From positions 31,691-95,690 of the forward strand of contig CAVPDG010000022.1 in NCBI GenBank assembly GCA_963702535.1: DNA of 64,000 nt. Direction: 5' to 3'. The notes beneath the pieces were generated by a model, which searched no databases, was not told the DNA's origin, and was given only the letters and a program-made list of their open reading frames with translations. Position numbers and translations under genes: made by a program. Numbering within the stretch: the first letter of the stretch is position 1; each line of letters opens with the position of its first letter. The stretch is from an uncultured Chloroflexia bacterium (GTDB lineage: Bacteria; Chloroflexota; Anaerolineae; Anaerolineales; UBA4823). Shown in pieces: positions 22,411 to 54,681 of this stretch.

Positions 22411-23812
22411 TTACCCGCTTGAACTGGCCGCGCTTGCCGGCAGGGATTCTCCCGCTTCTGGCTTGATGCGCAGCAATGCCAGCGCCCACAGGGCTGCCAT
22501 CAGCAGTCCGGCTAACAAGAAAGGTGCCCGCGCCCCAAACGCCTGGAAAATCAATCCGCCAATCAGAGGCGCGATGGCATTCGCCCCGCTAAGAAAGGCG
22601 GCTGAGATACCCAGCATCCCGCCTACCTCAGCCTTGATCACTTTCTTGGTGATCATGCTGTTAATGCTGGGCTGCAGCACGCCGCCCCCCACAGCTATCG
22701 GCACCATCGCCGCAAGGATCCAGAGCAACCCCAGCCAGCCGTTGTTATTGTCGGGCGGCAACTCCACTGCCAGGTTCTGCGTGGTGGGGTTCTCGTGGGC
22801 GCGGAAGCTTCCGCTGGAGCTCAGCTCAGCCTGCAGCTTCGCTTGCGAATAGCCGGGCAGCGGCTGGCGCGGTGTGAGCGCCGTCAGAATCAGCCCAACT
22901 GCCAGCAGCCCCAATCCCATGCTGATCAGGCGCCGCTCGCCCAGCTTTCAACTCCAGGGACCGATGAATCCCCCCTGCACTGCCACCACGATCACGCCCA
23001 CAAACACAAAGATGATCGAATTCCCTGAGGCATTCAACCCCATGCGCGCCAGAGTGAACAAGGATAAAAGCTGTTCGAAATCCGCCAAAGGCAATCTGTT
23101 GAAAAAATATCAGCATCAGCAAGAAGCCGATCGTTGGGCGTTTCAGGGCTTCCACCATCGCCCCGAACGAAAAAGCAGATTTTTGCTGGCTGGTTCCCCG
23201 GCGTTCTTCCGGCAGGGTCTCCTCGAACCAGAACCAGGTCAGCAGGATCGAAATGAGCGAGAACACCGCCGCCACAAAAGCCGGGACATGGTAATTGTTC
23301 TGGCTGACCATGAGCGAGAGGAATGCAATAATTGGACCGATGACAAATCCCACCCCAAACGCTGCGCCCAGCAAGCCCAATCCCTGCGTGCGATTCTTCT
23401 CATTCGTGCTATCGGCAATCGCCGCCTGGGCGGTGGAGATATTGGCGCCGGAAATGCCGTCGATCACGCGCGAGAGGAACAGCATCCACAGCGAGCTGGC
23501 GAACCCCAGCACCAGGAAACCCACCAGCGTGCCGACCTGGCTGATCATGAGCACAGGCTTGCGCCCGTAGCGGTCGGACAGGCGCCCCAAAATCGGCGCG
23601 CCGATGAACTGCATCATCGGGTACACCGCGCCCAACAAGCCGATCGTGAAGGCGTTCGCCCCAAAAGACACCGCGTACAGCGGCATCAATGGGATGATGA
23701 TCGTCATGCCGAGCAGATCGATCAGCACGATCACGAAAACGGGCAGTAGCTTCTTAAAATCAAGTTTGTCTTCTGGAGCAATCTCCGGCTTTGGTGTATT
23801 CTGCTTTGCCAT
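22411..23812 (-). CDS. MFS transporter (TetA/DHA1-like); frameshift near 23080
   Basis: GRLSDRYGRKP, RVIDGISG, GFVIGP; C-terminal half in a shifted frame (ORF 22411..22920). Confidence 0.85.
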
Positions 23813-23843
23813 ACCTTTTCCTTCTGTTGTTTTGATCTTGCGC

Positions 23844-24752
23844 CTATTGGGCGTGCTCGCCCCGGCGCACCCCGCCCAGCACCTGCCGGGCGCGTTCCAC
23901 CCCGGCTGCCAGCGAGCGCTGCACTGCCGCCTGGGAGAAATCCAGCGTATCACCCAGCGATGCCTGCGGCTCGATGATCTTACAGTCGTAATACTTCAGC
24001 GCTCGCCCGCTCGTCGGGTGGAACAGCGTATGTCCCAGCGCCTCCGCTTGCTTCACCAGGGCATTGATGCGCACGAACTCGCTCATATCGCTACGGAACA
24101 GCTCGTTTAATAATAGGTCCAGCGTGCGCTCGCCGATCTTGAGGATGTTCCCCGGCGGCTCAGGCAGCGCCTCCGTCGTCTCCGGGCTGCAGTTGATGAT
24201 CACCACCTCATCCGGGTCGGCATCCAAGATATCCCCGATCGGGCTGATGTTGCGCACGCCGCCGTCCACCATGCTGCGATATTGCGCCGAGATATCCACC
24301 GGCGTCCAAATGATCGGCATCACCGTCGAAGCCAGCACCGCCTGCCTCAGGTTGGGATCATCACCCCTGAACTCAACGTACTCCCCGCTCACCAGCGAGA
24401 CTGCCCCCACGCGCAGATCGGCGGCAATTTTATCCGGCTCCCATTCATTCAGCAGCAGCCGGCGCAGCGGCTCGTTGCCGTAGAAGGATTTGGCGCCGAA
24501 AAGCAGCTTGATGGTCGAGAGCAGGTTGAACCCTCCCGTATAGACCTGATCGCTGGAGATGGTGCTCCACACCTCGTACAAGCGCTGGTATTTCTCCATC
24601 GCCAGCATCGCCGCGTTGAGCGCCCCCACCGACACCCCGGCGATGATATCCCAATGGTAGCCTTTCACCTCACGGGCGTACTTCTCCGCGCCGCACTGGA
24701 AGGCGCCCTTCGCCCCGCCGCCGCTGAGTACAAGTGCTGTCTTTTTCACCAT
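23844..24752 (-). CDS. Patatin-like phospholipase
   Basis: LSGGGAKG, GVSVG nucleophile elbow, DGG. Confidence 0.9.
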   Translation of the reverse strand: MVKKTALVLSGGGAKGAFQCGAEKYAREVKGYHWDIIAGVSVGALNAAMLAMEKYQRLYEVWSTISSDQVYTGGFNLLSTIKLLFGAKSFYGNEPLRRLLLNEWEPDKIAADLRVGAVSLVSGEYVEFRGDDPNLRQAVLASTVMPIIWTPVDISAQYRSMVDGGVRNISPIGDILDADPDEVVIINCSPETTEALPEPPGNILKIGERTLDLLLNELFRSDMSEFVRINALVKQAEALGHTLFHPTSGRALKYYDCKIIEPQASLGDTLDFSQAAVQRSLAAGVERARQVLGGVRRGEHAQ

Positions 24753-24894
24753 CGCGCCGCCTCCTTGTTCCGATCCCAATCAGGGACGAACCGCCGCCCG
24801 CCCCGAAGCAAGACCACTTGATATGACCAACCAGGAGAGAGCAATTTATGTGCCAAAAGATCACCGGGGCGCCGTGCTTCTGGCAAGCAACAGC

Positions 24895-25452
24895 TTACTT
24901 CTTGGGGGTGTAAACCTCCGGCTTCAACTCAGCCACGTAGGGCAGGGTGCGGTAGCGGTCGGCGTAATCCAGGCCGTAACCCACCACCCATACATCCGGG
25001 ATGGTGAAGCCCAGGTAGTCGATGGTCACTTCAAGGCTCTCGCGCTTCTTCTCCACCAGCGCGCAGGTATGGATCGATGCCGGGTTTCGCCCGCGCAGGA
25101 TCTGGTGCAGGTAGTGCAGTGTATGCCCCAAATCCACGATGTCTTCCACCACCAACACGTGCTGCCCCTCGATCGGCTCGCGCAGATCCATCAGGATGCG
25201 CACCGCCCCCGAGCTGGTCGACTTGCCATAGCTCGAGAGCGCCATGAAGTCTACGATATGCGGCACGCTCAGGCAGCGCGTCAGGTCCGCCAGGAAGATG
25301 AACGCCCCCTTGAGGATACCGATGATGTACAGCCGCTCCGCCTGGCTGAAATCTCGCGAGATTTCAGCCGCCATCTCCTCCACGCGCTTTTGGATTTGCT
25401 CCTGGCTGATCAGCACCCGCGCCAGGTCTGGATGAATCTTGTTCATAGCCAT
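24895..25452 (-). CDS. hpt: Hypoxanthine phosphoribosyltransferase
   Basis: ILKGAFIF, VLVVEDIVDLG, VVGYGLDY..YRTLPY. Confidence 0.93.
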   Translation of the reverse strand: MAMNKIHPDLARVLISQEQIQKRVEEMAAEISRDFSQAERLYIIGILKGAFIFLADLTRCLSVPHIVDFMALSSYGKSTSSGAVRILMDLREPIEGQHVLVVEDIVDLGHTLHYLHQILRGRNPASIHTCALVEKKRESLEVTIDYLGFTIPDVWVVGYGLDYADRYRTLPYVAELKPEVYTPKK

Positions 25453-25594
25453 ACCCTCCCGCAATCAATACCGGGGCGTAAATCCCGGCTCTTTCCGTTC
25501 CAACAAGGCAAACTCTGATTATATCAAAATCCATTAATCTTTCGATTGACAGGCGCGCCGAATCCTGATATTAAAAGAGGGCTAGACAACTTTT

Positions 25595-25709
25595 TATTCC
25601 AATGGCGCCGCTCCTGGTCACCAACAGGGGGGAGAGTAAGTATGCTGGCAGCTTCTGTATGGCTTTGCAGCTCTCATGGCTCCGCTCAATTTGTGCGTGA
25701 GCCGGAATA
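25595..25709 (+). ncRNA. Candidate structured 5' leader RNA (multibranch), family not recognised
   Basis: Nested helices TATTCC/GGAATA, CTCCTG/CAGGGG, GAGAG/CTCTC and GGCTC/GAGCC, between a TTGACA (25546) and the plsY-like start. Confidence 0.3.
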
Positions 25710-25751
25710 GTTTTTCGCCAAACGTTTCGGCGTGACACTGTGGAGATAACG

Positions 25752-26456
25752 ATGCAACCCACAATCGCAGTTCTGGCGTTGGTCGCAGGCTACCTGCTCG
25801 GCTCGATCTCCTTCACGCGCCTGGTCACCCGCATCAAAGACCCTGGCGCTGAGCTTGAGACCATCGAGCTGCCGGTCGAAGGCACAGACGAGACCTTCAA
25901 GGTGACCTCGATGGGCGCTTCCACTGCATCCATGAAGCTTGGTCCCAAAGTCGGCTGCGCTATCGGCATGCTTGATATCCTCAAAGTCACCGTTCCCACC
26001 CTGGTTTTCCGCTTCCTTTACCCCGGGGAGACTTATTTCCTCATCACCGCCGCTGCCGGCATGGCGGGTCACAACTGGCCCATCTTCAACCGTTTCAAAG
26101 GCGGGCGTGGCATCTCCGCCTTCTACGGCGGTTTCATCGCCATCGACTGGATCGGCGCCATCCTGTGCGCCCTCAGCGGTATGGCATTGGGTCTCTTCGT
26201 CTTCAAGGACTTTGTGCTAGCCTACATGGCGGGCGTCTTGCTCGCTATTCCCTGGTTCTGGTTTACCACGCATGACCCCGCTTACCTGCTCTACGCCGTG
26301 GTCACCGCGATTTTCTTCGTGCTGGCGATGGTCCCCGATCTGCGCCAGTACCTCAAGCTGCGCAAGACCGGCAAAGTCGATATGCGCGCCGCTATGGACA
26401 CATCTCCCATGGGGCGGGGCATGATGAAGATGATGGATCGTTTTCAAAAAAAGTGA
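25752..26456 (+). CDS. Divergent PlsY-family (glycerol-3-phosphate acyltransferase-like) membrane protein
   Basis: GYLLGSI, DILK, GHNWPIF..FKGGRG; motifs 1 and 3 are degenerate. Confidence 0.8.
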   Translation: MQPTIAVLALVAGYLLGSISFTRLVTRIKDPGAELETIELPVEGTDETFKVTSMGASTASMKLGPKVGCAIGMLDILKVTVPTLVFRFLYPGETYFLITAAAGMAGHNWPIFNRFKGGRGISAFYGGFIAIDWIGAILCALSGMALGLFVFKDFVLAYMAGVLLAIPWFWFTTHDPAYLLYAVVTAIFFVLAMVPDLRQYLKLRKTGKVDMRAAMDTSPMGRGMMKMMDRFQKK

Positions 26457-26536
26457 CCGGGAATCCTTCCGGTAGTCGTGTTATTTTTTTGTTATGGGTT
26501 TGTCAGGCACGCACGCGTTCAGGGGAGTTTTTTGTG

Positions 26537-28966
26537 ATGGATATTTTGGATGGTACGGCTTCAAGCGCAAATAGTGCATCATCTGCAAAAGGGTCAAATA
26601 GTGCTTCTCCCGCCAGCGGTTCCAGGTATATCGTCCATTTAACCAGCCACAAGCTGCCTGCCTCGATCGGCAATAAAGCCTGGAACCTCCAGGTGCTGCG
26701 TGACCAGCGCCTGCCGGTTCCAGATACCTTCGTCTGCACCTGGGACGCATTTCTCACCTACCAGCAGCAGGGCGCGGCTGTCCTGCCTCGGCTGAGGGAA
26801 GAGCTAGAAAAGATCATCAAGCCGGGAAAATTATACGCGGTGCGCTCCTCCGCCAACGTTGAGGATAGCCTTGCCCACTCCTTTGCCGGTCAATTCGAGA
26901 CCGTCCTGGATCTCGCCGGCGTCGATCAGATCCTCCAGGCGGTCTTCGCCACCTGGGAATCCACCCACTCCCCAGGCGTGCTAAGCTACCTGCAAAAGAT
27001 CTCGCCGGGCAGCGAGCCGCTCAAGATGGCGGTCATCATCCAGGATATGGTCAATCCTGTCCTTGCCGGGGTCGCCTTCTCCAAGAATCCCATCACCGGT
27101 CTGGATGAGATCGTCGTCGAGGCGGTGCAGGGCAGCGGTACAGCCCTCGTCCAGGGCGGCGTCACCCCTTACCGCTGGGTGAGCAAGTGGGGCAGGTGGG
27201 TCTCTCGCCCGGATGATCCCGCTCTACCGCTCAGCGTCATCCAGGATGTCGTCGATCAGACCCGCAAAATTTCCCGCCAATTGGGCAAAGATGTCGACTT
27301 GGAATGGGTTTACGATGGCTCAGCCCTCTACTGGCTGCAATTGCGCGATATCACTGCCCTGGGCAATACCAACATCTACTCCAATCGCATCGCCAAAGAG
27401 ATGACCCCCGGCATGATCAAGCCCCTCGTCTGGTCGGTCAAGGTTCCCATCCCCGCCAGTGTTTGGGTCGGCTTCTTCAAGGAGCTGCTCGGCAAGATCG
27501 ATGTCGATCCGAACGACCTGACGCGCGCCTTCTACTACCGCGCCTACTTCAACATGGGCGTCTTCGGGCGCATCTTCGACAGCATGGGCATGCCGCGTGA
27601 ATCGCTGGAGATCATGATGGGCGTTTCCCCGCCCAGCGCAGACAAGCCGAAATCAATGCCGCGCATGAACATGAAGATGGTCCGCCGCCTACCGCACATG
27701 CTTGCTTTTGCCTGGGATAAGTGGACCTATGCCCGCCAGGCTGAGGCGGTTTACAGCCAGATCAAAGCCGATGCCGCAAAGTACCCCATCGCGCCTTCCC
27801 CCAGCCTGAGCGAGGCGCAGTTATTGGCGGTAATCGATGAGCTCATCCTCCTCAACCGGCGCTCCACCTATGAGACCACCGTCACCATCCTGCTCATGCA
27901 GTTCTATAACCGCCTGTTGAAGTCCCGCCTTGAGCGCCTCGGTATCGATTTCCAGCGCTTCGCCCTTACCGATGATATGCCCACCCTTGCGCAGCACGAC
28001 CCGCACACCAACCTGCAGGCGCTCCACAACCAGTTCTGCCAGCTCGCCCCGCAACAGCAGGAGGCAGTCCGCCGCAGCGACTACGCCGCGTTCCAGGTAT
28101 TACCCGGCATGCAGCCCTTCCAGGCGGCTGTCGCCCAATTCCTGGCGCAGTTCGGTCACCTCAGCGATATCGGCACCGATTTCAGCTTTGCCCCCTGGCG
28201 CGAGACGCCCGACCTCATCTTGAAGATCATCACCGATTACCCTCACGCCAGCGCCGCTAGCGGGGAGCCCCGCTTGCGCTTTGAAGATTTGCCGGTCAAA
28301 GGGCTCCAGAAGCGCATCCTTGCCCATCTCTACCACAAAGCCCGCCAGTTCAGGCTCTACCGCGAGATGCACAGCTCGCTGTTCACGTATACTCTCATGC
28401 TCTTCCGCGGCCACTACCTTGCCCTTGGCGACCACCTCGTGCGGCGCGGCGCCCTCGCCTCCCGCCAGGATATCTTCTACCTCTACGATGGCGAGGTCCG
28501 CTCGCTGGTCGCCGGGCAGGTATCCGGCGAGGACTTCCCCGCCCAGGTACTTCAACGCCAGGCGGAGATGGAAGCCTGTCGCGACGTGCTCCTCCCCGAG
28601 GTGATCTACGGCGATACGCCCCCACCTATCATCGCCCCTGGGGACGAAAAGCTCACCGGCACACCCACTTCCCGCGGCTACTACACCGGCAAGGTCAAGA
28701 TCGTGCGCAGCATCAGCGACTTCCCCAAGCTCGCCGCCGGCGATGTCCTCGTCATCCCCTACTCTGATGTCGGCTGGACCCCCCTCTTCGCCCGCGCCGG
28801 CGCAGTCATCGCCGAATTGGGCGGCATTCTTTCCCATAGCTCGATCATCGCCCGGGAGTACAATATCCCTGCCGTGGTCTCCGTCGCCGGAGCCATGCAG
28901 CTCAGCGACAACACCACGGTCACCATCGACGGTTACAAAGGCGAAATCACGGTTCACATGGCGTGA
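26537..28966 (+). CDS. PEP/pyruvate-binding ATP-grasp plus phospho-His swivel dikinase (RPH/PigC-like architecture)
   Basis: GNKA, AVRSSANVED..SFAGQFET, DLEW..LQLRDIT, long central helical region, GGILSHSSIIAREYNIPAV. Confidence 0.88.
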   Translation: MDILDGTASSANSASSAKGSNSASPASGSRYIVHLTSHKLPASIGNKAWNLQVLRDQRLPVPDTFVCTWDAFLTYQQQGAAVLPRLREELEKIIKPGKLYAVRSSANVEDSLAHSFAGQFETVLDLAGVDQILQAVFATWESTHSPGVLSYLQKISPGSEPLKMAVIIQDMVNPVLAGVAFSKNPITGLDEIVVEAVQGSGTALVQGGVTPYRWVSKWGRWVSRPDDPALPLSVIQDVVDQTRKISRQLGKDVDLEWVYDGSALYWLQLRDITALGNTNIYSNRIAKEMTPGMIKPLVWSVKVPIPASVWVGFFKELLGKIDVDPNDLTRAFYYRAYFNMGVFGRIFDSMGMPRESLEIMMGVSPPSADKPKSMPRMNMKMVRRLPHMLAFAWDKWTYARQAEAVYSQIKADAAKYPIAPSPSLSEAQLLAVIDELILLNRRSTYETTVTILLMQFYNRLLKSRLERLGIDFQRFALTDDMPTLAQHDPHTNLQALHNQFCQLAPQQQEAVRRSDYAAFQVLPGMQPFQAAVAQFLAQFGHLSDIGTDFSFAPWRETPDLILKIITDYPHASAASGEPRLRFEDLPVKGLQKRILAHLYHKARQFRLYREMHSSLFTYTLMLFRGHYLALGDHLVRRGALASRQDIFYLYDGEVRSLVAGQVSGEDFPAQVLQRQAEMEACRDVLLPEVIYGDTPPPIIAPGDEKLTGTPTSRGYYTGKVKIVRSISDFPKLAAGDVLVIPYSDVGWTPLFARAGAVIAELGGILSHSSIIAREYNIPAVVSVAGAMQLSDNTTVTIDGYKGEITVHMA

Positions 28967-28990
28967 GCCATCCAGTTCTCGGAGGCTTTT

Positions 28991-29740
28991 ATGCACGTAC
29001 TTGAAGCAAAAGCGGTGCGCAAGCAGTACAAGATGGGCAATCACAGCGTCGACGCCCTGGCTGGCGTCGACTTCCTAGTGGAGCAGGGTGAGTTCGTCGC
29101 CATCATGGGTCCCTCTGGCAGCGGCAAATCCACCCTTCTGCACCTCATCGGTGGGCTGGATCAGGCCACCGAAGGCGAAGTGACCATTGCCGGGCAGCCC
29201 CTCTCCCTGCTCAAGGATACGCAGATCACCCTGCTGCGCCGGCGGCACGTGGGGTTCGTCTTCCAGTTCTTCAACCTGTTGCCCACCCTCACCGCCGAAG
29301 AAAACATCACCCTGCCGCTGCTCATCGACGGCAAAAACCCGCGCAATTACCAGGAGCGCCTGACGGCCCTGCTCAGCCTGATCGGCCTCACCGACCGCCG
29401 TGGTCACAAGCCGGAACAGCTCTCCGGCGGCGAGCAGCAGCGCGTCGCCCTGGCGCGCGCCCTCATCACCGAGCCGGCTATCATGCTGGCTGACGAGCCC
29501 ACCGGCAACCTGGACTTTAAAACCGGCACCACCATTATGGAGCTCCTGCGCCGCTCCTGCCAGCGAGCTGGGGCAGACCGTCATCGTCGTCACCCACGAC
29601 CCGCGCGCCGCCTCCTACGCCGACCGCGTCGTCTTCTTGCGCGATGGCTTGATCGCCTCCGAGGTGCGCTTCGAGGCGAAGGCAGCCTCCAACAAAACCT
29701 GAAGATCATCATGGAGCAGATGGAGAAGCTCGAGTTCTGA
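28991..29740 (+). CDS. ABC transporter ATP-binding protein (LolD/MacB type); C-terminal frameshifts
   Basis: [25 protein letters not shown]; VVTHD lies in a shifted frame. Confidence 0.88.
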
Positions 29741-29779
29741 TCCCCCTCCTCGCTTCTTTCCTGAAAGAACCCCCTCAGT

Positions 29780-32365
29780 ATGACTCTCCTGCGCTTATTG
29801 ATCCTTCGTTCGCTGCGCTCCCGCCCGCTGCGCACCCTTTTGAGCGGCTTTGGCATCGTCCTCGGCGTTGCAACCATCCTCGCCATCAGCATTACCAACC
29901 AGACCGCCCTGGAATCCGTCACGCGCCTGTTCAAAGACACCTCCGGCAAGGCAAACCTGGTCGTCTCCAGCGCCGACGCCGAGGCGGGCGGCTTCTCCAC
30001 AAGCGCACTGCAGCGCATCAAAGCCGTCCCTGGCCTGGCGGCAGCAGTCCCTTCCGTCCACGTCCAGACCAGCCTGGTTGAAGACGCCGGTCAAGCGCAG
30101 ATCGGTCTCAACTTCTTCGGCGCCAGCGCCGGCGGGCTCACCCTCTATGGCATCGACCCCCTGCTCGACCCGCAAGCGCGTGAATACAAGATCGTCGCCG
30201 GCGAGTTCCTCTCCCCGCAGGGTCAGGGCGACCAGGTCGTTCTGGTCAAGAGCTTCGCCGATGAGAACGAGATCGAGTTGGGCAAGTCCGTCGCCATCAT
30301 CACCGACAGCGGCGTTGAAAAGCTGCGCGTGGTTGGCTTGATGGCAAAGGAAGGTCCCGGGCAGCTCAACAACGGCAACTTTGGCGTCATCCCCCTCGAG
30401 ACCGCTCAGAAGCTCTTCTACCGCAACAACAAGCTGGACCAGATCGATTTAATCGCCTCCCCCGAGAACACCAGCACCGAAGCCCTCGCCAGCCTACGCT
30501 CCAGCCTGCAAGCCGCTCTGGGGAACGAGTACACCGTCACCTATCCCGCCTCGCAGGGTCAGCGTATGACCCAGATGCTTGGCAGCTACCAGATCGGTCT
30601 GAACTTCTTGAGCGGCATGGCGCTCTTCGTAGGCGCCTTCCTCATCTACAACGCCTTCTCCATGACCGTGGTGGAGCGCACGCGTGAGTTCGGCATGCTG
30701 CGCACCGTCGGCATGACGCGTGCCCAGGTCACCCGCCAGGTATTGCTGGAAGCCGCCACCCTTGGCTTTCTCGGCTCGATTTTAGGCATCGGGCTGGGCA
30801 TCCTCCTGGCGCGTGGCCTCACCAGCCTGATGGAGGTCATGCTCTCGCAGGACCTCTCCAGCATCGCCATCCCCCAGGGCGTGGTGCTCACCAGCATGGC
30901 GATCGGCATCCTGGTTACCCTGGTATCAGCGGCTATCCCCGCCCTGCAGGCCGGGCGCATCTCCCCTCTGGAAGCCCTGCGCGTGCGCGGCGTGGGTAAG
31001 GAAGGCTGGCTGATCCGCAAGGGCTGGATCCCGGGCGCGGTGCTGCTGGCGTTTTCAGCAGTCATCCTGGTCATCAACCCTTTCCCTTATGACGTCCAGT
31101 TCCGCATGGGCAGCATGGTGGTCTTCTCGCTCTTCCTGGGCGGCACGCTGATGATCCCCGCCAGCGTTAACTTCTGGGAGCGCAGCCTGCGTCCCGTCAT
31201 CCGCCTCTTCTATGGCAATAGCGGGCGCCTGGGCAGCAGCAACATCCAGCGCGCCAAGCTGCGCACTACCCTCACCGCTGGCGCGTTGATGATCGGCGTT
31301 TCCATGATCATCGTCGTCTGGGTCATGACCGACTCCTTCAAGGGCGACCTGGACAAGTGGCTGAAAGGCTATATCGGCGGCGACCTGTACGTCGCCTCCA
31401 GCCTGCCCCTGGGTCGGGATGTCTGGAAGCGCCTGGAAGCCGTCGAAGGCGTGGCTGCCGCCGCTCCGGTGCGCTACTTCGATGTTGAATGGCGCACGCC
31501 CGCCGGTGAAAAAGAAAAGCTGGCCTACATGGGCATCGACCCCGCCAGTCACAGCCAGGTGACAACGTTCATCTTCAGCCAGCCCAATACCGATGCCTTC
31601 TCAGCCCTCCAGCAGCTGGCGGATGGCGATGCCGTCTTCATATCCAGCGTCATCGCCGAGAAGTACGGCCTCCAGGCCGGTGATTCCATCATGCTGCTCA
31701 CCAAGACCGGCGAGAAACCCTTCAAAGTGGCTGCCGTGGTGGTCGATTACTACAACCAGGGTCTGGTGGTTACCGGCAGTTGGGTGGACATGGGGCGCTA
31801 TTTCCGCCAGAAGGACGCCAACGCCTTCCTCATCAAGGTCGCCTCTGGCTACGATATCGACCAGGTTGGGCAGCGCATCGATGACCTCTATGGCAAGCGC
31901 GACCAGCTCATCGTCGAATCCAACCAGGCGCTCCTGCAGCGCGTCTCCGGTCTCATGCAGAATGCCTTCAGCATGTTCGATGTGCTCGCCCTTATCGCCA
32001 TGCTGGTGGGCTTTATGGGCATCATGAACACCCTCACGATGAATGTCATGGAGCGCACCCAGGAGATCGGAATGCTGCGCGGCGTGGGTATGACCCGCCT
32101 GCAGGTCCTGGTGATGATCCTGGCAGAAGCAGTGCAGATCGGCTTGCTCGGCGGCGTGCTCGGGCTGGCTTTTGGCGTGATCCTTTCACGTATCCTGATG
32201 GCAGCCATGAAAGCCATGTCGGGCTACACCCTGGCTTATGTCCTGCCCCTGGAGCGCGTCCTGCTTGCCATCGTCATGGCGGTGGTCATCTCGCAGCTTG
32301 CCGCTCTCTTCCCCGCCCTCAAAGCTGCCCGCACCCGCATCCTGGAAGCCATCCAGTACGAGTGA
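29780..32365 (+). CDS. FtsX-like/MacB-type ABC permease (duplicated)
   Basis: Two MacB-PCD plus FtsX repeats, with ERTREFGMLRTVG and ERTQEIGMLRGVG. Confidence 0.9.
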   Translation: MTLLRLLILRSLRSRPLRTLLSGFGIVLGVATILAISITNQTALESVTRLFKDTSGKANLVVSSADAEAGGFSTSALQRIKAVPGLAAAVPSVHVQTSLVEDAGQAQIGLNFFGASAGGLTLYGIDPLLDPQAREYKIVAGEFLSPQGQGDQVVLVKSFADENEIELGKSVAIITDSGVEKLRVVGLMAKEGPGQLNNGNFGVIPLETAQKLFYRNNKLDQIDLIASPENTSTEALASLRSSLQAALGNEYTVTYPASQGQRMTQMLGSYQIGLNFLSGMALFVGAFLIYNAFSMTVVERTREFGMLRTVGMTRAQVTRQVLLEAATLGFLGSILGIGLGILLARGLTSLMEVMLSQDLSSIAIPQGVVLTSMAIGILVTLVSAAIPALQAGRISPLEALRVRGVGKEGWLIRKGWIPGAVLLAFSAVILVINPFPYDVQFRMGSMVVFSLFLGGTLMIPASVNFWERSLRPVIRLFYGNSGRLGSSNIQRAKLRTTLTAGALMIGVSMIIVVWVMTDSFKGDLDKWLKGYIGGDLYVASSLPLGRDVWKRLEAVEGVAAAAPVRYFDVEWRTPAGEKEKLAYMGIDPASHSQVTTFIFSQPNTDAFSALQQLADGDAVFISSVIAEKYGLQAGDSIMLLTKTGEKPFKVAAVVVDYYNQGLVVTGSWVDMGRYFRQKDANAFLIKVASGYDIDQVGQRIDDLYGKRDQLIVESNQALLQRVSGLMQNAFSMFDVLALIAMLVGFMGIMNTLTMNVMERTQEIGMLRGVGMTRLQVLVMILAEAVQIGLLGGVLGLAFGVILSRILMAAMKAMSGYTLAYVLPLERVLLAIVMAVVISQLAALFPALKAARTRILEAIQYE

Positions 32366-32411
32366 ACCCCAATTTTCGGGAGCATTCCAGACCAACTGCG
32401 TATCTCCTCCG

Positions 32412-33413
32412 TCAATCTGCTTTACCCACAACGCTGCCATCCGCAGTAATATTGCTCACCCCGGCGAGCCCTGAATAGGCGATTGCCAGCGCCTCCGCCC
32501 GCAGCGTCTCACCCGCCTCCAGGTGGGCGCACGTCCCGTTCTGCCGCGCCACGTCCAGGTCATAGGGGTATCCGGTCGAGGCTTCCAGGATCAGCGTATG
32601 CAATCCCCGCCAGCCGCCGAATGTCCGGAACAGCCACACGTGCGGGAAGACCTGTGTGGGGAAGGTCAGCGCAAAGCCCACCCTCGCCCGGCGGTCAGTC
32701 ACCGCGTACCAGCCCTGCTCCACATCCACCAGGTAGTGCATGTCGGCGATCCCCGCATCCGCCGCAAGCACCTGCCTCAGGTCGACCATCCTGCCTTGCC
32801 GGTCGCGGGCGTAAGGCCACTCGAAGCGCCCCCCGCCCGGGAACTGCTCCTCGCGCCAGGCATCCGTGATCCCCTGGCGCGCCGGCACGTCCAGCCAGGA
32901 ATCCGCCGAGATCGCCAGCGGCGGGTGGATGTTCCACAGGAAGTCGATCGGCGCCGGTTCCTGGTTATGGTAGGCGTAGCTCAGGCGGGCGTGCGGCGCC
33001 CCTGCCTCCAGGCAGATCGTCTTCTCGAAGCGCGTTGCCAGCACCCGCCCGTAGCTGCTGAAGCGCACCTCGACGCGCTGCTCCGTCGCCGCCACCACCT
33101 CCCACTCCGCCGCCTGCGACCAGAACTCCCCGTGGTCTGGCAACAGGTCTCCGCCTGGCGCGGCGCGCGGCAGGTCGTTGGGCAGCAGCTCGTCCCACCC
33201 CCCGCTCCAGTTGTCGTCGAACCCCGCCCCGTAATGCTGGCGGGCGGGCGGCAGAGTCGGGTTGTGCCACAGCAGGTTGTGCCCCGACGGCTTGTGGACG
33301 AAGTTGTAGATCTTCGCCCCCAGCTCGGGCAGCACGTCGATGCACAGCAGGTCGTTCTCCAGGCGCACCACCTGCAAGCCGCGGTACTGCCAGTTTGTAT
33401 CCAGTTGTAGCAC
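32412..33413 (-). CDS. Galactose mutarotase-like (aldose 1-epimerase/DUF5107-like) protein
   Basis: LENDLL..LPELGAKI, GGWDELLP, PDHGE, WNIHP. Confidence 0.7.
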   Translation of the reverse strand: MLQLDTNWQYRGLQVVRLENDLLCIDVLPELGAKIYNFVHKPSGHNLLWHNPTLPPARQHYGAGFDDNWSGGWDELLPNDLPRAAPGGDLLPDHGEFWSQAAEWEVVAATEQRVEVRFSSYGRVLATRFEKTICLEAGAPHARLSYAYHNQEPAPIDFLWNIHPPLAISADSWLDVPARQGITDAWREEQFPGGGRFEWPYARDRQGRMVDLRQVLAADAGIADMHYLVDVEQGWYAVTDRRARVGFALTFPTQVFPHVWLFRTFGGWRGLHTLILEASTGYPYDLDVARQNGTCAHLEAGETLRAEALAIAYSGLAGVSNITADGSVVGKAD

Positions 33414-34272
33414 CTAGCCCTCCACCTGTACCACCCGGTTGCTGATGCGCCCGATGCCCTCCACCTCGCACGCCACCACGTCGCCCGGCTTGAGGAACTC
33501 CGGCGGCGTGCGCGCGTAGCCCACCCCGCTGGGCGTGCCGGTCGAGAGGATATCCCCCGGCAGCAGCGTCATGCCGCGTGACAGCCATTCGATCAGCGCC
33601 GGGATGTCGAAGATCAGGTCGCCCGATGTCGATTTCCTGCTTCAGCTCGCCGTTCACCCAGCAGCGCAGAACCAGACTGTGCGGGTCGGGGATCTCATCT
33701 CTGGTGACGATCGCCGGTCCCATCGGGCAGCTCCCGTCCAGCGACTTGCCCTTGAAGAATTGCTGGTGGCTCACCTGAAGATCGCGGGCGCTGATGTCGT
33801 TCAGCACCGTGTAGCCGAAGATGTAATCGAAAGCCTGCGCGCGGGTGATGTTCTTGCCCTGCTTGCCGATCACCACCGCCAGCTCCACCTCCCAATCCAG
33901 CTTCGCCGAAACACCTGGGTCGAAGGGGATGTGCCCGAACGGCGCGTTCACCGTCGTCGTCGCCTTGGTGAAGAACACCGGCGTCTCCGGCATCTTGATC
34001 GGCAGGCTCTTGGCGCGCAGGCTCTCCGCGGCGTGCGCGGCGTAGTTCATCCCCAGGCATACGATGTTGCGTCGCGGCTGCGGGATCGGCGCCAGCAGCG
34101 TTAACGACTTCAAAGCCAGCTCGGTCTCCGCCGCAGCCGCCGCCCTGGCTAAGCCCGCCTCCCCCTGGCGGATCAGCTCCAGCATGTCCATCCCGGGCAC
34201 AGGTCGCACCCGCTCGCCGTTTAGCACGCCGACACTCGGTCCTTCCGCAGACTGGTATGTAATTAATCGCAT
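33414..34272 (-). CDS. Fumarylacetoacetate hydrolase family protein; frameshift near 33630
   Basis: CLGMNY, PVFFTK, DWEVEL, NDISARD, GKSLD; the C-terminus (TGTPSGVG) is in a shifted frame ending TAG at 33414. Confidence 0.88.
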
Positions 34273-34929: not shown

Positions 34930-35691
34930 TCACCACACCCCGGGTATCAGGGCTTTCCTCTCCGGCGGGTAATCAGGAAAGTGTTCCCGATACCACTGGT
35001 GGTGGGAGCGAGCGCGCGGCGCCAGGTTGGCAAAGGTCCACACGGCGAACGTCAGCCCCGCCAGGCTCCAGGTTGCCAGCGCCCAGCCGCTCCATTCGAT
35101 GATCTCCCCCAGGTAATTGGGGCATGACACCCGCTCGAACAACCCCCCGTGCGGGATCTTGTAGCCCATCTCGCCCGGCGCCCGCAGTTGGCGCAGCCTG
35201 CGGTCCGCCCGCCGGTTGAGTGCGAAACCCGCCACGAACAGCGCCGCCCCGCAGATGAAGCGCGGGTCTGCCAGCCACTTCAGGGGATAGCCGCCCGAGA
35301 GCGAGAACAGGTAGGCGCCGTTGAGGGTCGCGTTGCCAGAGTTGAAGACGAACCCCATCAGGATCACAACCACCGGCATCTTCTTCCTGCCGTCGGCAAT
35401 CTGGAAGGGGTAGATGAAAGCCCGGTGGATATAGTGCGCTTCCCACAACCCCAGGAATACGAAAGCCGTCAGGTTCTTGGGTGCGCTGCCGGTGATAAAA
35501 AAGTAGGCGAAAACCAGCGCCGCCGGGGCTTCCATGATCACCCAGCCGGTGTGGTTCGGCACAGCCGGACCCCATTCCCGGCGCACGTGCCGCCCGTAGG
35601 GGGCGCTGATGAAGAACAGCGCGGCGAAGATGACCCCCGCCAGCACGAAGCTCAGCCGCAGCAGGGCATTGTACACGACAGGGCTAATCAT
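34930..35691 (-). CDS. 3-oxo-5-alpha-steroid 4-dehydrogenase (steroid 5-alpha-reductase)-like membrane protein
   Basis: APYGRH, GWVIMEAP, HYIHRAFIYP, YKIPHGGLF, CPNYLGEIIEW, NLAPRARSHHQWY, RKALIP. Confidence 0.9.
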   Translation of the reverse strand: MISPVVYNALLRLSFVLAGVIFAALFFISAPYGRHVRREWGPAVPNHTGWVIMEAPAALVFAYFFITGSAPKNLTAFVFLGLWEAHYIHRAFIYPFQIADGRKKMPVVVILMGFVFNSGNATLNGAYLFSLSGGYPLKWLADPRFICGAALFVAGFALNRRADRRLRQLRAPGEMGYKIPHGGLFERVSCPNYLGEIIEWSGWALATWSLAGLTFAVWTFANLAPRARSHHQWYREHFPDYPPERKALIPGVW

Positions 35692-51883: not shown

Positions 51884-52016
51884 AAGCGACTTCTACTGTC
51901 CTGGAGAAGTAATTGGCGCACCCGGGAATACAGCTGACCTCAAAGTTGATGGGATTACCCAGGCAATGGTTGGGGATGCATTGCTATACAAACCGCACGC
52001 TCTCTGGATGAACGAA

Positions 52017-53300: not shown

Positions 53301-53697
53301 ATCGTTCCGGTATTGTTTTGAAATCGGAATCATAACCATATATTGCACCCAGATCCAAAAAGTATTGACCCCAATCACTCTGAGCATACCCCCAAAAATA
53401 TCTGCCTTGAAATGGATCTGAAGAGGCCAGATTAACATTGCCAGCTGTTCGGACTTCAAAGTGGAGGTGAGCAGGTACCATATCATCGCCCTTCGTGATG
53501 CCGGTTGTACCGATTATTGTATCTGAATTAACATCTTCACCAACCCCAACAAAAAATCCACTGTTGCGCTCTGTACCTAAATGTGCATAGATAGAATAGA
53601 ACTTGTTATCGTATAGCTCGTGCTCGACCATGACATAATTACCAAAATCGTCAGACCAGCCAGAAGCTACCACAACACCGGGGGCGATGGGAGGCGG
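53290..53697 (-). pseudogene. 5'-truncated M23 peptidase, probable Rhs C-terminal domain
   Basis: PIAPGVVV..FGNYVMVEH..YAHL..IGTTG..HLHFEVR; no N-terminal HxxxD motif or start codon; abuts the nucleotidyltransferase gene. Confidence 0.75.
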
Positions 53698-53708
53698 CAA
53701 TTCGAGAT

Positions 53709-54287: not shown

Positions 54288-54531
54288 CTTCCGCTTCTCC
54301 AAGCACTTTTCGCGCCAGGTCTGGTCCGAGCAAAAGGTCAGCCAGCCGGCGGTTCAGCTCGGCATCCGTGGCGTGGGGAAAGCGCTGGCGCAGCCCGATG
54401 AGAGCCAGCCTCCTGGCAGAAGCATTCAACCCGGACAGCATTTCCATTTTACGCCAGGAGGGAACGGTACGCAGGAGCTGCACCTGGAGGGCTTCCATGG
54501 CGGGAGAAGTGTCGGTATAAAAAGGCGGCAT
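54277..54531 (-). CDS. Small helical partner of the nucleotidyltransferase (putative toxin-antitoxin component)
   Basis: 84 aa, DTSP..Q..LLR..P..RK..GLRQRFP; overlaps the NTase gene. Confidence 0.65.
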   Translation of the reverse strand: MPPFYTDTSPAMEALQVQLLRTVPSWRKMEMLSGLNASARRLALIGLRQRFPHATDAELNRRLADLLLGPDLARKVLGEAEDAA

Positions 54532-54681
54532 AAACCTAGTATAGCACGCAGGGTATACTTTAGTGTTTATATATTCTGCCCCAGGGGAGCGAGCACCTGA
54601 ACTAAGAAGGCGCGCAAGGAGGAACGGTGTGCGCCTGGTCTTTGAAAGGTGGCGGACCTGGCTATTCGGCTTGAAAGGTGC

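What the first reader, a model, noticed from the sequence alone, without database searches (positions are those of the whole stretch)
25752..32365. Divergent PlsY + RPH/PigC-type dikinase + ABC exporter: candidate undescribed lipid-modification system
Seen: four co-oriented, closely spaced genes. The PlsY homolog keeps GH.WP and the GG(R)G phosphate-binding loop. It has TSMGASTASM in place of motif 1 (GSGNxGATNxxR) and no RHxxNI motif 3, so the canonical catalytic His is missing. The dikinase has an ATP-grasp domain, a large central substrate domain and a C-terminal phospho-His domain, but no PEP TIM barrel, so it is not PpsA/PPDK. Known: this architecture phosphorylates small, often hydrophobic acceptors (rifampin phosphotransferase, PigC), and PlsY uses acyl-phosphate. 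Inference: the dikinase makes a phosphorylated donor or acceptor (acyl-phosphate, or an alkyl/diol phosphate) for the PlsY paralog, and the product is moved by the MacB/LolCDE-type transporter. That would be a PlsX/Fak-independent route or a novel lipid.
Basis: partly seen in the sequence, partly recalled or inferred. Interest (0 to 1): 0.8.

Follow-up and report, generated by a model that had tools for sequence, protein, structure and literature searches.

The report
PlsY-like protein paired with dikinase
A membrane protein related to the lipid-making enzyme PlsY, but without its glycerol-phosphate site, is almost always encoded beside (in some microbes fused to) an ATP-driven phosphate-transfer enzyme and usually a membrane exporter, which points to an undescribed system that handles some water-repelling molecule.

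Summary
The four genes are real and at the stated coordinates. They encode a divergent PlsY-family protein, an RPH/PigC-architecture dikinase without the PEP TIM barrel, an ABC ATPase and a duplicated FtsX/MacB permease. Against the solved PlsY, the paralog keeps the acyl-phosphate "phosphate hole" (His111, GGRG loop). It has lost the glycerol-3-phosphate clamp (S35, R45, H177, N180 equivalents).

The pairing is not chance:
- The dikinase adjoins the PlsY-like gene in 79 of 81 loci found with the PlsY-like protein.
- A PlsY-family gene adjoins the dikinase in 62 of 75 loci found with the dikinase.
- These loci span at least 14 phylum-level groups.
- 21 of the 120 best relatives of one fused form are single 980-1020-residue PlsY-like-dikinase proteins.
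- MacB-type ABC genes accompany the pair in 94-100 of 156 loci.

Accessory genes recur. The most notable is a membrane-anchored chelatase-like protein, which this genome also has on another contig.

The genome also holds plsX, DegV genes and two nearer-canonical PlsY genes, so this module is an addition to the standard pathway. The chemistry is untested. Most likely the dikinase activates a membrane-resident substrate, the PlsY fold handles the activated form, and it is then exported. My searches found nothing in print.

The parts
25752..26456 (+). PlsY-family paralog, 'type 1' (234 aa from the ATG; 238 aa from the GTG at 25740)
   Evidence: PF02660 scores 74 bits against a cut-off of 24.1. 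TIGR00023 (PlsY equivalog) scores 60.6 against 137.2. The family alignments are A1 and A2. A profile of the family finds 169 representative clusters at E<=1e-30, against 11841 PF02660-like clusters at E<=1e-3.
25899..25943 (+). Remnant of PlsY motif 1 (KVTSMGASTASMKLG, residues 54-68)
   Evidence: Alignment to aaPlsY 5xj5 and to a canonical PlsY gives these replacements: S35->V55, N37->S57, T41->S61, R45->M65. The roles of these residues are taken from PMC5700162.
26067..26117 (+). GHNWP and FKGGRGIS: the retained 'phosphate hole' (H92->H111; GG-x-G loop; K104->R123)
   Evidence: H111, G121, G122 and G124 are invariant in the 29-sequence alignment; the same residues (H107, G117, G118, G120 in A2's numbering) are invariant in the 56-sequence alignment. 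The R123 position varies (A/S/V/M) in some members.
26406..26429 (+). Family-specific C-terminal motif PMGRGMMK
   Evidence: The motif is nearly invariant in type 1 and absent from the canonical PlsY sequences in A5. Its role is unknown.
26453..28966 (+). Three-domain dikinase. The likely start is the ATG at 26537; homology to relatives begins near residue 57.
   Evidence: PPDK_N covers residues 124-305 and PEP-utilizers covers 762-830. The best NCBIfam match is PRK06241.2-2 at 238 bits against a cut-off of 883, spanning residues 258-834. RPH scores 181/999, PigC 178/1300 and PEP synthase 153.5/739.75. The best PDB matches are the Listeria RPH chains 5hv2/5fbs/5hv1, at E about 1e-39.
28835..28837 (+). 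Codon of the predicted phospho-carrier His795 (GGILSHSSIIAREYNIP)
   Evidence: G-G-x-L-S-H is invariant in the 56 sequences of A3.
28991..29740 (+). ABC ATPase (LolD/MacB-like). The window copy has two compensating indels.
   Evidence: ABC_tran scores 126 bits. LolD TIGR02211 scores 219 against a cut-off of 307.75. The H-loop lies in another frame but is in frame in relatives. Contigs of 4 of 4 runs lack one base at 29562 and carry an extra T after 29677.
29780..32365 (+). Duplicated MacB_PCD + FtsX permease (861 aa)
   Evidence: FtsX scores 128 bits and MacB_PCD 94 bits, two stretches each. LolCE TIGR02212 scores 138 against 362; ADOP scores 101 against 622. Orthologs at 52-68% identity lie beside the pair in Chloroflexota loci.
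23844..24779 (-). Patatin-like phospholipase upstream on the opposite strand (context; membership of the system is uncertain)
   Evidence: PF01734 scores 93 bits. A second patatin-like gene lies beside this genome's chelatase-like gene on contig C13.

Best explanation
The PlsY-like protein and the dikinase form one membrane-bound 'activate and hand over' module, and the ABC machine removes what it makes.

**Proposed steps**
1. The dikinase takes the beta-phosphate of ATP onto His795, giving AMP + Pi, as in RPH, PigC and PEP synthase.
2. It passes that phosphate to a water-repelling substrate at the cytoplasmic face of the membrane. The most likely acceptor is a carboxylate, which would give an acyl-phosphate. 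That is the only ligand class known for the PlsY fold, and it is a high-energy product of the kind dikinases are used for.
3. The PlsY-like protein holds the phosphorylated head group in its conserved phosphate hole.
4. Because its glycerol-3-phosphate clamp is gone, it passes the activated group to a different, probably uncharged, acceptor.
5. The MacB-type ABC transporter then extracts the product towards the cell surface. Other hosts use HlyD, LolA-like and barrel-like partners, or an ABC-2 pump.

**Shown here**
- The domain content and which residues are kept or lost.
- The conserved adjacency and the fusion of the two proteins.
- The frequent exporter partner.
- Coexistence with ordinary PlsY and PlsX.

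**Inferred**
- Physical contact between the two proteins.
- The nature of the substrate, the acceptor and the product.
- The direction of transport.
For: **Residue pattern**
- His111 and the GGxG loop are invariant, while the equivalents of S35, R45, H177 and N180 are replaced. Residue roles come from PMC5700162.
- The dikinase keeps the ATP-grasp and phospho-His invariants in all 56 sequences.

**Linkage, starting from the PlsY-like protein**
- 78 of 81 unique loci hold the dikinase.
- One further locus (L013) holds a dikinase fragment at the contig edge.
- The median gap is -3.5 nt.
- All 78 pairs are on the same strand; 50 are in the order Y>D and 28 in the order D>Y.

**Linkage, starting from the dikinase**
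- 61 of 75 unique loci hold a type-1 or type-2 PlsY-like gene.
- L130 holds a third variant.

**Fusions**
- L132/P0127 is one open frame carrying PF02660 + PPDK_N + PEP-utilizers.
- 21 of the 120 best hits to it are 980-1020 aa with all three families. My own scan confirms three of them.
- Their dikinase parts are 40-43% identical to the window's dikinase.

**Exporter, in 156 unique loci**
- ABC ATPase in 100, MacB/FtsX in 94, HlyD in 25, LolA-like in 17, a barrel-like protein in 20.
- ABC-2 in 7 Bacillota loci.

**Lipid-flavoured neighbours**
- Lipase/thioesterase-like alpha/beta hydrolase in 20 of 156 loci.
- PAF-AH/PETase-like hydrolase in 4 loci.
- Patatin-like genes in this genome.

**Addition, not replacement**
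- 4 of 4 bacterial host genomes tested hold a higher-scoring PlsY (114-152 bits) beside the paralog (60-72 bits).
- This genome has plsX and two other PF02660 genes.
Against:
- To my recollection, no member of this dikinase family is known to phosphorylate a carboxylate. The characterised acceptors I could list are hydroxyl, enol or phenol oxygens (paper listings).
- 14 of 75 dikinase-seeded loci show no type-1 or type-2 PlsY-like gene. Three of them (L158, L164, L165) have full 4-kb flanks. A fourth, L130, also has full flanks but carries a third variant.
- An ABC gene is seen in only 100 of 156 loci, although many loci are cut by contig ends.
- The chelatase-like membrane protein fits no acyl scheme. 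It lies beside the pair in 27 of 156 loci, with a more canonical ferrochelatase-like gene in a further 10. Seeded the other way, D or Y lies within 5 kb in 57 of 78 loci. The HupE + DUF6512 pair (14-16 of 156) is equally unexplained.
- The K104-equivalent Arg is not invariant.
- Type-2 partners lack the His92 equivalent, so 'phosphate hole kept' rests mainly on the glycine loop in that clade.
Confidence: 0.45

Rival explanations
1. Detoxification or resistance. The dikinase inactivates a membrane-active, water-repelling toxin or antibiotic by phosphorylation, as RPH does with rifampin. The PlsY-like protein captures the compound or its phospho-form in the membrane, and the ABC pump expels it.
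For: - The closest solved relatives are RPH chains.
- The partner pumps are of the MacAB/HlyD and ABC-2 (DrrA-like) kinds.
- One Bacillota locus has an AraC/GyrI-like regulator directly upstream.
- The distribution is sporadic and spans many phyla: 0 of 300 other genomes sampled from this genome's own phylum have the paralog.
- MATE pumps lie nearby in 4 loci.
Against: - RPH equivalog score is 181 against a cut-off of 999.
- RPH needs no membrane partner (recalled; RPH paper seen only as listing and abstract start). This pairing, by contrast, is near-obligate and sometimes a fusion.
- tblastn with the PlsY-like protein finds no match in 72,556 plasmid records.
- The lipase-like and chelatase-like neighbours are unexplained.
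Confidence: 0.22
2. Fatty-acid scavenging. The PlsY-like protein presents membrane-dissolved free fatty acid, playing the role FakB plays for FakA. The dikinase makes acyl-phosphate from it. Ordinary PlsY or PlsX then uses that acyl-phosphate: a third route to acyl-phosphate that feeds normal phospholipid synthesis.
For: - The acyl-phosphate site features are kept while the G3P site is lost, which fits a presenter rather than a transferase.
- Lipase, thioesterase and patatin neighbours could release fatty acids.
- Ordinary PlsY and PlsX are present to consume the product.
Against: - This genome already has at least 7 DegV (FakB-family) hits.
- MacB-type machines are not known as importers (recalled), yet they are the commonest partner.
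- In the Bathyarchaeota MAG, PF02660 finds only the paralog, so no ordinary PlsY was found there.
- The chelatase-like and HupE partners are unexplained.
Confidence: 0.13
3. Tetrapyrrole or metal-cofactor handling. The substrate is a salvaged porphyrinoid whose propionate (or another group) is activated by the dikinase and esterified or anchored by the PlsY fold. The chelatase-like protein and HupE serve metal exchange, and a HrtAB-like MacB pump exports the result.
For: - The chelatase-like membrane protein (three N-terminal hydrophobic helices plus a CbiX/CfbA-like half with the IH..D(I/V)P motif) is very conserved, at 60% mean column identity across phyla. It typically sits between the dikinase and PlsY-like genes.
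- This genome has a copy on contig C13 scoring 494.8 bits.
- HupE/UreJ adjoins the pair in 14 loci.
- PigC-type relatives act on pyrroles (recalled; HapC paper seen only as listing and abstract start).
- No porphobilinogen synthase (PF00490) was found in this genome (85% complete) or in 3 of 4 other hosts tested.
Against: - The chelatase-like gene was not found in 5 of 5 other host genomes that carry the pair. It has 157 relatives, against 318 for the PlsY-like protein, in the same genome collection. It is therefore an accessory.
- Similarity to solved chelatases is weak: E = 0.009, 17.6 bits.
- No cobalamin or other riboswitch was found in 14 loci or in the window.
Confidence: 0.1
4. The four genes are unrelated neighbours and the dikinase works alone.
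For: Some dikinase loci lack a PlsY-like gene.
Against: - Adjacency holds in 79 of 81 and 62 of 75 loci, in both gene orders, over at least 14 phylum-level groups.
- Single-chain fusions exist.
- Pairwise identities of the two proteins are correlated (Mantel r = 0.445; 0 of 999 permutations reach it). Shared ancestry alone could produce part of that correlation.
Confidence: 0.03

Closest known systems
PlsX-PlsY and FakAB-PlsY acyl-phosphate pathways of bacterial phospholipid synthesis
   Same: - Both use a PlsY-fold integral membrane protein with the His + GGxG phosphate hole that binds acyl-phosphate.
- Both have a separate cytoplasmic enzyme that would supply the phosphorylated lipid.
   Different: - The G3P clamp (S35, R45, H177, N180) is lost, and the protein scores below the PlsY equivalog cut-off.
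- The partner is a His-swivel dikinase (ATP to AMP + Pi), not PlsX or a Dak-type kinase with FakB.
- An exporter is co-encoded.
- The module exists in addition to plsX, PlsY and DegV genes.
Rifampin phosphotransferase RPH (Listeria, PDB 5hv1/5fbs; PMC4844700, listing and abstract start seen)
   Same: - It has three domains in the same order: ATP-grasp, large central substrate domain, C-terminal phospho-His swivel domain.
- It has no PEP TIM barrel.
- It is the best solved match.
   Different: - The RPH equivalog score is 181 against a cut-off of 999.
- The window's dikinase is near-obligately paired with, or fused to, a membrane protein.
- No resistance context was shown.
PigC / RedH / HapC prodiginine ligases
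   Same: They share the dikinase architecture. Phosphorylation activates a carbonyl oxygen so that a second substrate can displace phosphate (recalled; HapC paper PMC13534948 seen as listing and abstract start). The logic is the same as that proposed here for activation followed by transfer.
   Different: - Scores are 178/1300 (PigC) and 187/1350 (RedH).
- In PigC both steps are in one soluble protein. Here the transfer step would sit in a separate PlsY-fold membrane protein.
Two-component and multi-subunit dikinases (phenylphosphate synthase, recalled; HpeHI, PMC12167813, listing and abstract start seen)
   Same: They are dikinase-family enzymes that work with separately encoded partner subunits on hydrophobic aromatic acceptors.
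   Different: Their partners are soluble pieces of the dikinase itself, not an unrelated integral membrane fold.
MacAB-TolC / LolCDE type ABC machines
   Same: - Both have FtsX + MacB periplasmic core domains and a LolD-like ATPase.
- HlyD-type adaptors or LolA-like proteins are encoded nearby in relatives.
   Different: - The permease is a duplicated 861-aa single chain.
- It scores below the LolCE, LolD and MacB cut-offs.
- The cargo is unknown.

Membership tests
PlsY, glycerol-3-phosphate acyltransferase (TIGR00023 equivalog) | Score at or above the curated equivalog cut-off | tested here: not met
   60.6 bits against a cut-off of 137.2. At the Pfam superfamily level PF02660 is met, at 74 bits against 24.1.
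PlsY, glycerol-3-phosphate acyltransferase (TIGR00023 equivalog) | G3P pocket: Ser35, Arg45, Lys104 and Asn180 phosphate clamp, plus Ser142 and His177 (PMC5700162) | tested here: not met
   The replacements are S35->V55, R45->M65, K104->R123 (variable in the family), H177 gapped and N180->V. S142 was not mapped.
PlsY, glycerol-3-phosphate acyltransferase (TIGR00023 equivalog) | Acyl-phosphate 'phosphate hole': His92 and the loop-3 backbone (residues 104-107, glycine-rich) | tested here: met
   H111, G121, G122 and G124 are invariant in the 29-sequence alignment; the same residues (numbered H107, G117, G118, G120) are invariant in the 56-sequence alignment.
PlsY, glycerol-3-phosphate acyltransferase (TIGR00023 equivalog) | Acylates G3P with acyl-phosphate | not testable with these tools
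   This needs an enzyme assay or complementation of a plsY depletion strain.
Rifamycin-inactivating phosphotransferase RPH (NF041857) | Three-domain architecture without a TIM barrel | tested here: met
   PPDK_N and the PEP-utilizers mobile domain are found, and no PEP-utilizers_C hit. The central region aligns to PRK06241-type models over residues 258-834.
Rifamycin-inactivating phosphotransferase RPH (NF041857) | Curated equivalog score | tested here: not met
   181.4 bits against 999; NF000283 scores 127.6 against 1700.
Prodigiosin ligase PigC / RedH | Curated equivalog score | tested here: not met
   PigC scores 177.8 against 1300; RedH scores 187.4 against 1350.
PEP synthase / pyruvate phosphate dikinase | C-terminal PEP/pyruvate TIM-barrel domain and the equivalog score | tested here: not met
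   No TIM-barrel family appears in the Pfam scan. TIGR01418 scores 153.5 against 739.75; TIGR01828 scores 32.6 against 843.
MacB / LolCDE (type VII ABC) | FtsX transmembrane domain, MacB periplasmic core domain, and a LolD/MacB-like ATPase | tested here: met
   FtsX scores 128 bits, MacB_PCD 94 bits and ABC_tran 126 bits.
MacB / LolCDE (type VII ABC) | Equivalog scores for LolCE, LolD or MacB | tested here: not met
   LolCE scores 138/362, LolD 219/307.75 and MacB 90/966.
Known anti-phage defence systems (PADLOC-DB) | A match of the PlsY-like protein or the dikinase to any model | tested here: not met
   There are no hits for P0001, P0002 or the chelatase-like protein.

The most novel reading that the evidence does not exclude
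The PlsY fold has been recruited as the membrane-embedded half of a dikinase. A phospho-His swivel enzyme, separate or fused, makes a high-energy lipid phosphate in the membrane, most simply an acyl-phosphate. That would be a third biological route beside PlsX and FakAB. The G3P-blind PlsY paralog then couples the activated group to a new acceptor, giving an exported envelope lipid or lipid conjugate. In about a quarter of loci this is linked to a membrane chelatase-like protein. The module has spread by gene transfer through anaerobes of at least 14 phylum-level groups, archaea included.
Probability: 0.3. Interest if true: 0.85.

Novelty: new variant of a known kind. Interest (0 to 1): 0.72.

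Why it matters
**Annotation.** Public sources name these genes 'glycerol-3-phosphate acyltransferase PlsY' and 'phosphoenolpyruvate synthase / pyruvate, water dikinase' (names). Both names are probably wrong, so metabolic reconstructions of Chloroflexota, Aminicenantes, Bacteroidales, Thermotogota and some archaeal MAGs inherit the error.

**New biochemistry.** The near-obligate pairing and the fusions turn an anonymous dikinase clade and an anonymous PlsY clade into one testable system:
- It would be the first integral-membrane partner for a PEP-utiliser-family dikinase.
- It would be the first PlsY-fold protein with an acceptor other than glycerol phosphate.

If it makes acyl-phosphate, it adds a third route to that intermediate. 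If it makes an exported lipid, it adds an unknown envelope component to abundant wastewater and sediment anaerobes.

**A cultured host exists.** The pair is present in Ornatilinea apprima P3M-1 (locus L119), so experiments are feasible.

**A limit on the wider claim.** I checked whether these genes explain the PlsY homologues that papers cite for Asgard archaea (PMC6737245 and PMC13400652, passages read). They do not, in general. In a 251-genome sample of that phylum, 92 genomes have PF02660 matches. Most of the 150 listed rows are stand-alone frames of about 180-290 aa, a second group are 340-437-aa frames, and the best rows reach 182 bits. The seed genome's own 964-aa frame was not among those rows.

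Tried and rejected
- Complex prediction of the dikinase (residues 39-809 of A3) with the PlsY-like protein: the queue was full, and declared the tool unavailable. Nothing was folded.
- The protein-atlas search could not read a new sequence.

**Searches that found nothing**
- Fusions among longer relatives of the window's type-1 protein: none scored among 4238 candidates. The fusions found later are all type 2.
- P0117, a 330-aa ORF with a His domain followed by type-1 PlsY-like sequence, could be a gene-calling read-through. I do not count it as a fusion.
- Expression: no RNA holder is listed among the 20 runs.
- Riboswitches: none in the 14 loci or in the window.
- Promoter and terminator scan of 24700-32600: no more hits than in shuffled sequence.
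- Plasmids: tblastn with P0001 found no match.
- PADLOC: nothing for the two core proteins.
- Literature:
  - PlsY + dikinase / PEP synthase terms: none of the 15 listed papers contains 'PlsY'.
  - 'PlsY-like / homolog / paralog / family': 5 papers, none on this pairing by their titles and abstract starts.
  - DUF6512 / ferrochelatase-like / PEP-utilizing / PlsY / HupE: 0 papers.
  - Supplementary files were not opened and may hold gene lists that I could not see.

**Ideas rejected or left open**
- The idea that Asgard 'PlsY' genes are generally of this dikinase-coupled kind: rejected.
- Naming the window's phylum: not possible with the tools. The best hits are Chloroflexota MAGs, yet 0 of 300 other genomes sampled from its own phylum carry the paralog.

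Full report
**What is in the window**

Four ORFs on the + strand lie head to tail:
- 25740/25752-26456
- 26453/26537-28966
- 28991-29740
- 29780-32365

The spacings are -4 (with the GTG start), 24 and 39 nt. The next gene downstream is on the other strand, and about 220 nt separate the cluster from the upstream ORF.

| Gene | Pfam result |
|---|---|
| first | PF02660 (PlsY family), 74 bits |
| second | PPDK_N (140 bits) + PEP-utilizers mobile domain (69 bits); no TIM barrel |
| third | ABC_tran |
| fourth | two copies each of MacB_PCD and FtsX |

No NCBIfam equivalog cut-off is reached:

| Model | Score | Cut-off |
|---|---|---|
| PlsY | 60.6 | 137.2 |
| RPH | 181 | 999 |
| PigC | 178 | 1300 |
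| PEP synthase | 153.5 | 739.75 |
| LolD | 219 | 307.75 |
| LolCE | 138 | 362 |

The best solved relatives of the dikinase are the Listeria RPH chains, at E about 1e-39.

**The PlsY-like protein, residue by residue**

A profile of 29 relatives aligns to Aquifex PlsY (5xj5) over residues 4-176 at E = 1.9e-15. The structure paper (PMC5700162, passages read) assigns these roles:
- The acyl-phosphate 'phosphate hole': His92 and the backbone of residues 104-107.
- The G3P pocket: Ser35, Arg45, Lys104, Asn180, Ser142 and His177.
- His177 positions G3P; the paper argues it is not a catalytic base.

In the window protein (238-aa numbering):

| aaPlsY residue | Window protein |
|---|---|
| His92 | His111 |
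| GG-K-G loop | G121 G122 R123 G124 |
| Ser35 | Val55 |
| Asn37 | Ser57 |
| Thr41 | Ser61 |
| Arg45 | Met65 |
| His177 | falls in a gap |
| Asn180 | Val |

His111 and the three glycines are invariant in the 29-sequence alignment, and their equivalents are invariant in the 56-sequence alignment. The Arg123 position varies. The family also has:
- an insertion of about 11 residues before the motif-1 remnant;
- a C-terminal PMGRGM motif that canonical PlsY lacks.

So the site for a lipid phosphate is kept and the site for glycerol phosphate is not.

A family profile finds 169 representative clusters at E<=1e-30, against 11841 PF02660-like clusters at E<=1e-3, among 1.84 billion representatives. 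This is a small, distinct clade.

**Is the pairing more than chance?**

*Seeding with the PlsY-like family* found 318 relatives in a collection of one genome per species; the best 80 were kept.
- Together with the four loci, and after removing two duplicates, there are 81 unique loci.
- 78 hold the dikinase by profile search. One more (L013) holds the dikinase C-terminus at the contig edge. L019 and L079 do not.
- The median gap is -3.5 nt.
- All 78 pairs are on one strand: 50 in the order PlsY-like then dikinase, and 28 in the reverse order.

*Seeding with the dikinase* gave 75 unique loci after removing five duplicates.
- 61 hold a PlsY-like gene scoring at least 100 bits.
- Five of these are a second subfamily ('type 2', GTGNxGVxNAF).
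- L130 has a third variant.
- Of the 14 without type 1 or type 2, ten are cut within about 2.5 kb on at least one side. L158, L164 and L165 have full flanks and none. L130 also has full flanks but carries the third variant.

The 156 unique loci carry record titles from these groups:

| Group | Loci |
|---|---|
| Chloroflexota | 84 |
| Actinomycetota | 18 |
| Bacillota | 13 |
| Bacteroidota | 12 |
| Aminicenantes/Acidobacteriota | 9 |
| Archaea | 5 |
| Pseudomonadota | 3 |
| Thermotogota | 3 |
| Ignavibacteria | 2 |
| unclassified | 2 |
| Desulfobacterota, WOR-3, Spirochaetota, Calditrichota, Cloacimonadota | 1 each |

These are MAG labels as deposited; binning errors are possible.

**Fusions**

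- In L132 (a Heimdallarchaeota-labelled MAG), one open frame of 964 codons, cut by the contig end, carries PF02660, PPDK_N and PEP-utilizers.
- Searching with it, 21 of the 120 best hits are proteins of 980-1020 residues with all three families precomputed. One is an NCBI record from an Asgard archaeon.
- My own scan confirms the order PlsY-like, ATP-grasp, His domain for P0278, P0280 and P0334.
- All 21 N-terminal domains are type 2: 154-202 bits on the type-2 profile against 18-42 bits on the type-1 profile.
- Their dikinase parts are 40-43% identical to the window's dikinase. They are interleaved in the hit list with unfused, type-1-associated dikinases such as that of L047, which is 54.8% identical to the window's.
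- A C-terminal cytoplasmic dikinase would fit the cytoplasm-facing active site that I recall for PlsY; I did not check the topology in the paper.

Fusion and adjacency together make a shared function, and probably direct contact, the only reasonable reading. Contact itself was not tested, because the complex predictor was unavailable.

**Partners (156 loci, lower bounds because many loci are truncated)**

| Partner | Loci |
|---|---|
| ABC ATPase | 100 |
| MacB/FtsX permease | 94 |
| HlyD adaptor (Chloroflexota only) | 25 |
| LolA-like protein | 17 |
| Signal-peptide-bearing barrel-like protein (diderm groups and some Bacillota-labelled MAGs) | 20 |
| ABC-2 permease (Bacillota) | 7 |
| PGAP1/palmitoyl-thioesterase-like alpha/beta hydrolase | 20 |
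| 3-beta-HSD/epimerase-like | 6 |
| HupE/UreJ | 14 |
| DUF6512 | 16 |
| Chelatase-like, long form | 27 |
| Chelatase-like, more canonical form | 10 |

P0162 is one ORF holding the PlsY-like protein and the barrel-like protein.

The exporter type changes with the envelope type of the host while the core pair stays. I read this as evidence that something is moved out of, or along, the membrane.

**The chelatase-like protein**

- It is about 415 aa, with three N-terminal hydrophobic helices.
- It has weak but specific similarity to CbiX/CfbA. CfbA scores 35 bits against a cut-off of 120. PDB 6m2a matches at E = 0.009, aligning the IH..D(I/V)P motif.
- It is unusually conserved, at 60% mean column identity across phyla.
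- Seeding with it gave 78 new loci: 55 hold the dikinase, 43 the PlsY-like gene, 57 either. The typical order is dikinase, chelatase-like, PlsY-like.
- The window's own genome has a copy on another contig (C13:63506-64711, 494.8 bits). It lies beside a second patatin-like gene and an ABC-2 permease.
- It is not universal: 0 of 5 other host genomes carrying the pair have it.
- Porphobilinogen synthase (PF00490) was not found in this genome (85% complete) or in 3 of 4 other hosts. If the protein handles tetrapyrroles, they would have to be salvaged.
- No riboswitch was found.

I cannot fit this protein into the lipid model, and I list it as the main unexplained fact.

**Relation to ordinary lipid synthesis**

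- The genome has plsX at 339 bits.
- It has at least 7 DegV-family hits.
- It has two further PF02660 genes at 118 and 117 bits. These reach 109.8 and 101.6 bits on TIGR00023, still under the cut-off of 137.2.
- In 4 of 4 bacterial hosts tested, a PlsY scoring 114-152 bits coexists with the paralog at 60-72 bits. In a Bathyarchaeota-labelled MAG the paralog is the only PF02660 hit.

The module is therefore an addition, not the cell's PlsY.

**Quality of the sequence**

- The ATPase reads out of frame over about residues 191-229. The expected H-loop lies in another frame and is in frame in relatives.
- Contigs from 4 of 4 runs of one wastewater study differ from the window by one base fewer at 29562 and one extra T after 29677. 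No other indel appears in 25700-32400.
- The gene is therefore intact in the population, and the frames of the other three genes are independently supported.
- Other split-looking genes in the window suggest an indel-prone assembly.

**Mechanism**

Dikinases of this family spend two phosphoanhydride bonds to make high-energy phosphate esters. This rests on established knowledge of PEP synthase, RPH and PigC; the RPH, HapC, HpeHI and MarK papers were seen only as listings and abstract starts. The PlsY fold is known only to bind acyl-phosphate.

The simplest union is as follows:
1. The dikinase phosphorylates a membrane carboxylate.
2. The paralog binds the acyl-phosphate.
3. Lacking a G3P site, the paralog transfers the acyl group to another acceptor.
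4. The ABC machine extracts the product.

My confidence by level:
- The coupled-module reading: about 0.85.
- The full chain as stated: 0.45.
- The acyl-phosphate step taken alone: about 0.35-0.4.

The rivals are:
- detoxification by phosphorylation plus efflux (0.22);
- fatty-acid scavenging feeding normal PlsY/PlsX (0.13);
- tetrapyrrole or metal-cofactor handling (0.10);
- chance adjacency (0.03).

**Novelty**

Three full-text searches found nothing on this pairing. Supplements were not readable. Public names for these proteins are generic.

I rate the finding as a new variant of a known kind: acyl-phosphate / PlsY-type chemistry with a new activating enzyme, a new acceptor and an exporter. 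If the chemistry proves different, it would be further from anything known.

I tested and dropped one tempting extension, that the PlsY homologues cited for Asgard archaea are generally of this type. In a 251-genome sample of that phylum, 92 genomes have PF02660 matches. Most of the 150 listed rows are stand-alone frames of about 180-290 aa, a second group are 340-437-aa frames, and the best rows reach 182 bits. No frame of fused length appears among those rows; the seed genome's 964-aa frame is known only. A further 45 rows were not listed.

Noticed in passing
window 28991-29740 (sites 29562 and 29677): The ABC ATPase gene carries two compensating indels that put the H-loop out of frame. Contigs from 4 of 4 public runs of one study lack both changes, so this is an assembly error or a minor allele.
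   Followed up: yes
window 22411-22920 / 22826-23953 (-) and 32412-33413 / 32965-34272 (-): An MFS transporter appears split into two overlapping ORFs. A DUF4432-type ORF overlaps a fumarylacetoacetate-hydrolase ORF. These are probably further indel errors or decayed genes.
   Followed up: no
own genome G000:C13:63506-64711 (locus L265:7998-9224, -); e.g. L111:6398-7669: A membrane-anchored class II chelatase-like protein of about 415 aa is highly conserved across phyla and usually sits between or beside the dikinase and PlsY-like genes. This genome's copy is unlinked and lies next to a patatin-like gene.
   Followed up: partly
e.g. L124:2693-3931, L140:7010-8317, L174:2737-3968: A HupE/UreJ gene and a DUF6512 membrane-protein gene occur as a pair directly beside the dikinase/PlsY-like pair in 14-16 of 156 loci from Chloroflexota, Actinomycetota and Pseudomonadota.
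   Followed up: partly
e.g. L178:7103-8260, L148:4284-5438; protein P0162: A protein of about 384 aa with a signal peptide, a barrel-like sequence and no Pfam match follows the PlsY-like gene in Bacteroidota, Aminicenantes and others. In P0162 it is in one ORF with the PlsY-like protein. LolA-like genes accompany it.
   Followed up: partly
own genome L001:1462-2184 and L002:1456-2064: The genome's two other PlsY-family genes are themselves non-standard and fall under the TIGR00023 cut-off at 109.8 and 101.6 bits. L001 reads SGRTGATNAMR, has an insertion before the GG loop, and has LRPNIRRL. L002 reads GDGNPGATNVFR and HRHDLR. An Ornatilinea gene is of the first kind.
   Followed up: partly
window 34930-36686 (-): A 3-oxo-5-alpha-steroid 4-dehydrogenase-family gene sits beside an HpnA/SdmB-like NAD epimerase (215 bits against a cut-off of 368), about 2.5 kb downstream of the cluster. 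Related epimerase genes lie directly upstream of the dikinase in four Bacillota loci.
   Followed up: no
own genome and host genomes G301, G303, G305: No porphobilinogen synthase (PF00490) was found in the window's genome (85% complete), in Ornatilinea apprima, in a Bathyarchaeota MAG or in a Bacteroidales MAG. It was found in a Caldilineaceae MAG.
   Followed up: partly
L064, L073, L032, L038, L140, L147: Some loci hold two or three PlsY-like genes, and L064 holds two dikinases, so the module has duplicated locally in some lineages.
   Followed up: no
window 52000-60000: G+C falls to 0.47-0.54, against about 0.60-0.65 elsewhere. This may be a foreign island.
   Followed up: no
genomes of the phylum of G306: In the sample of that archaeal phylum, many PF02660 matches lie in open frames of 400-437 aa. 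This suggests a different, unexamined PlsY fusion or extension.
   Followed up: no
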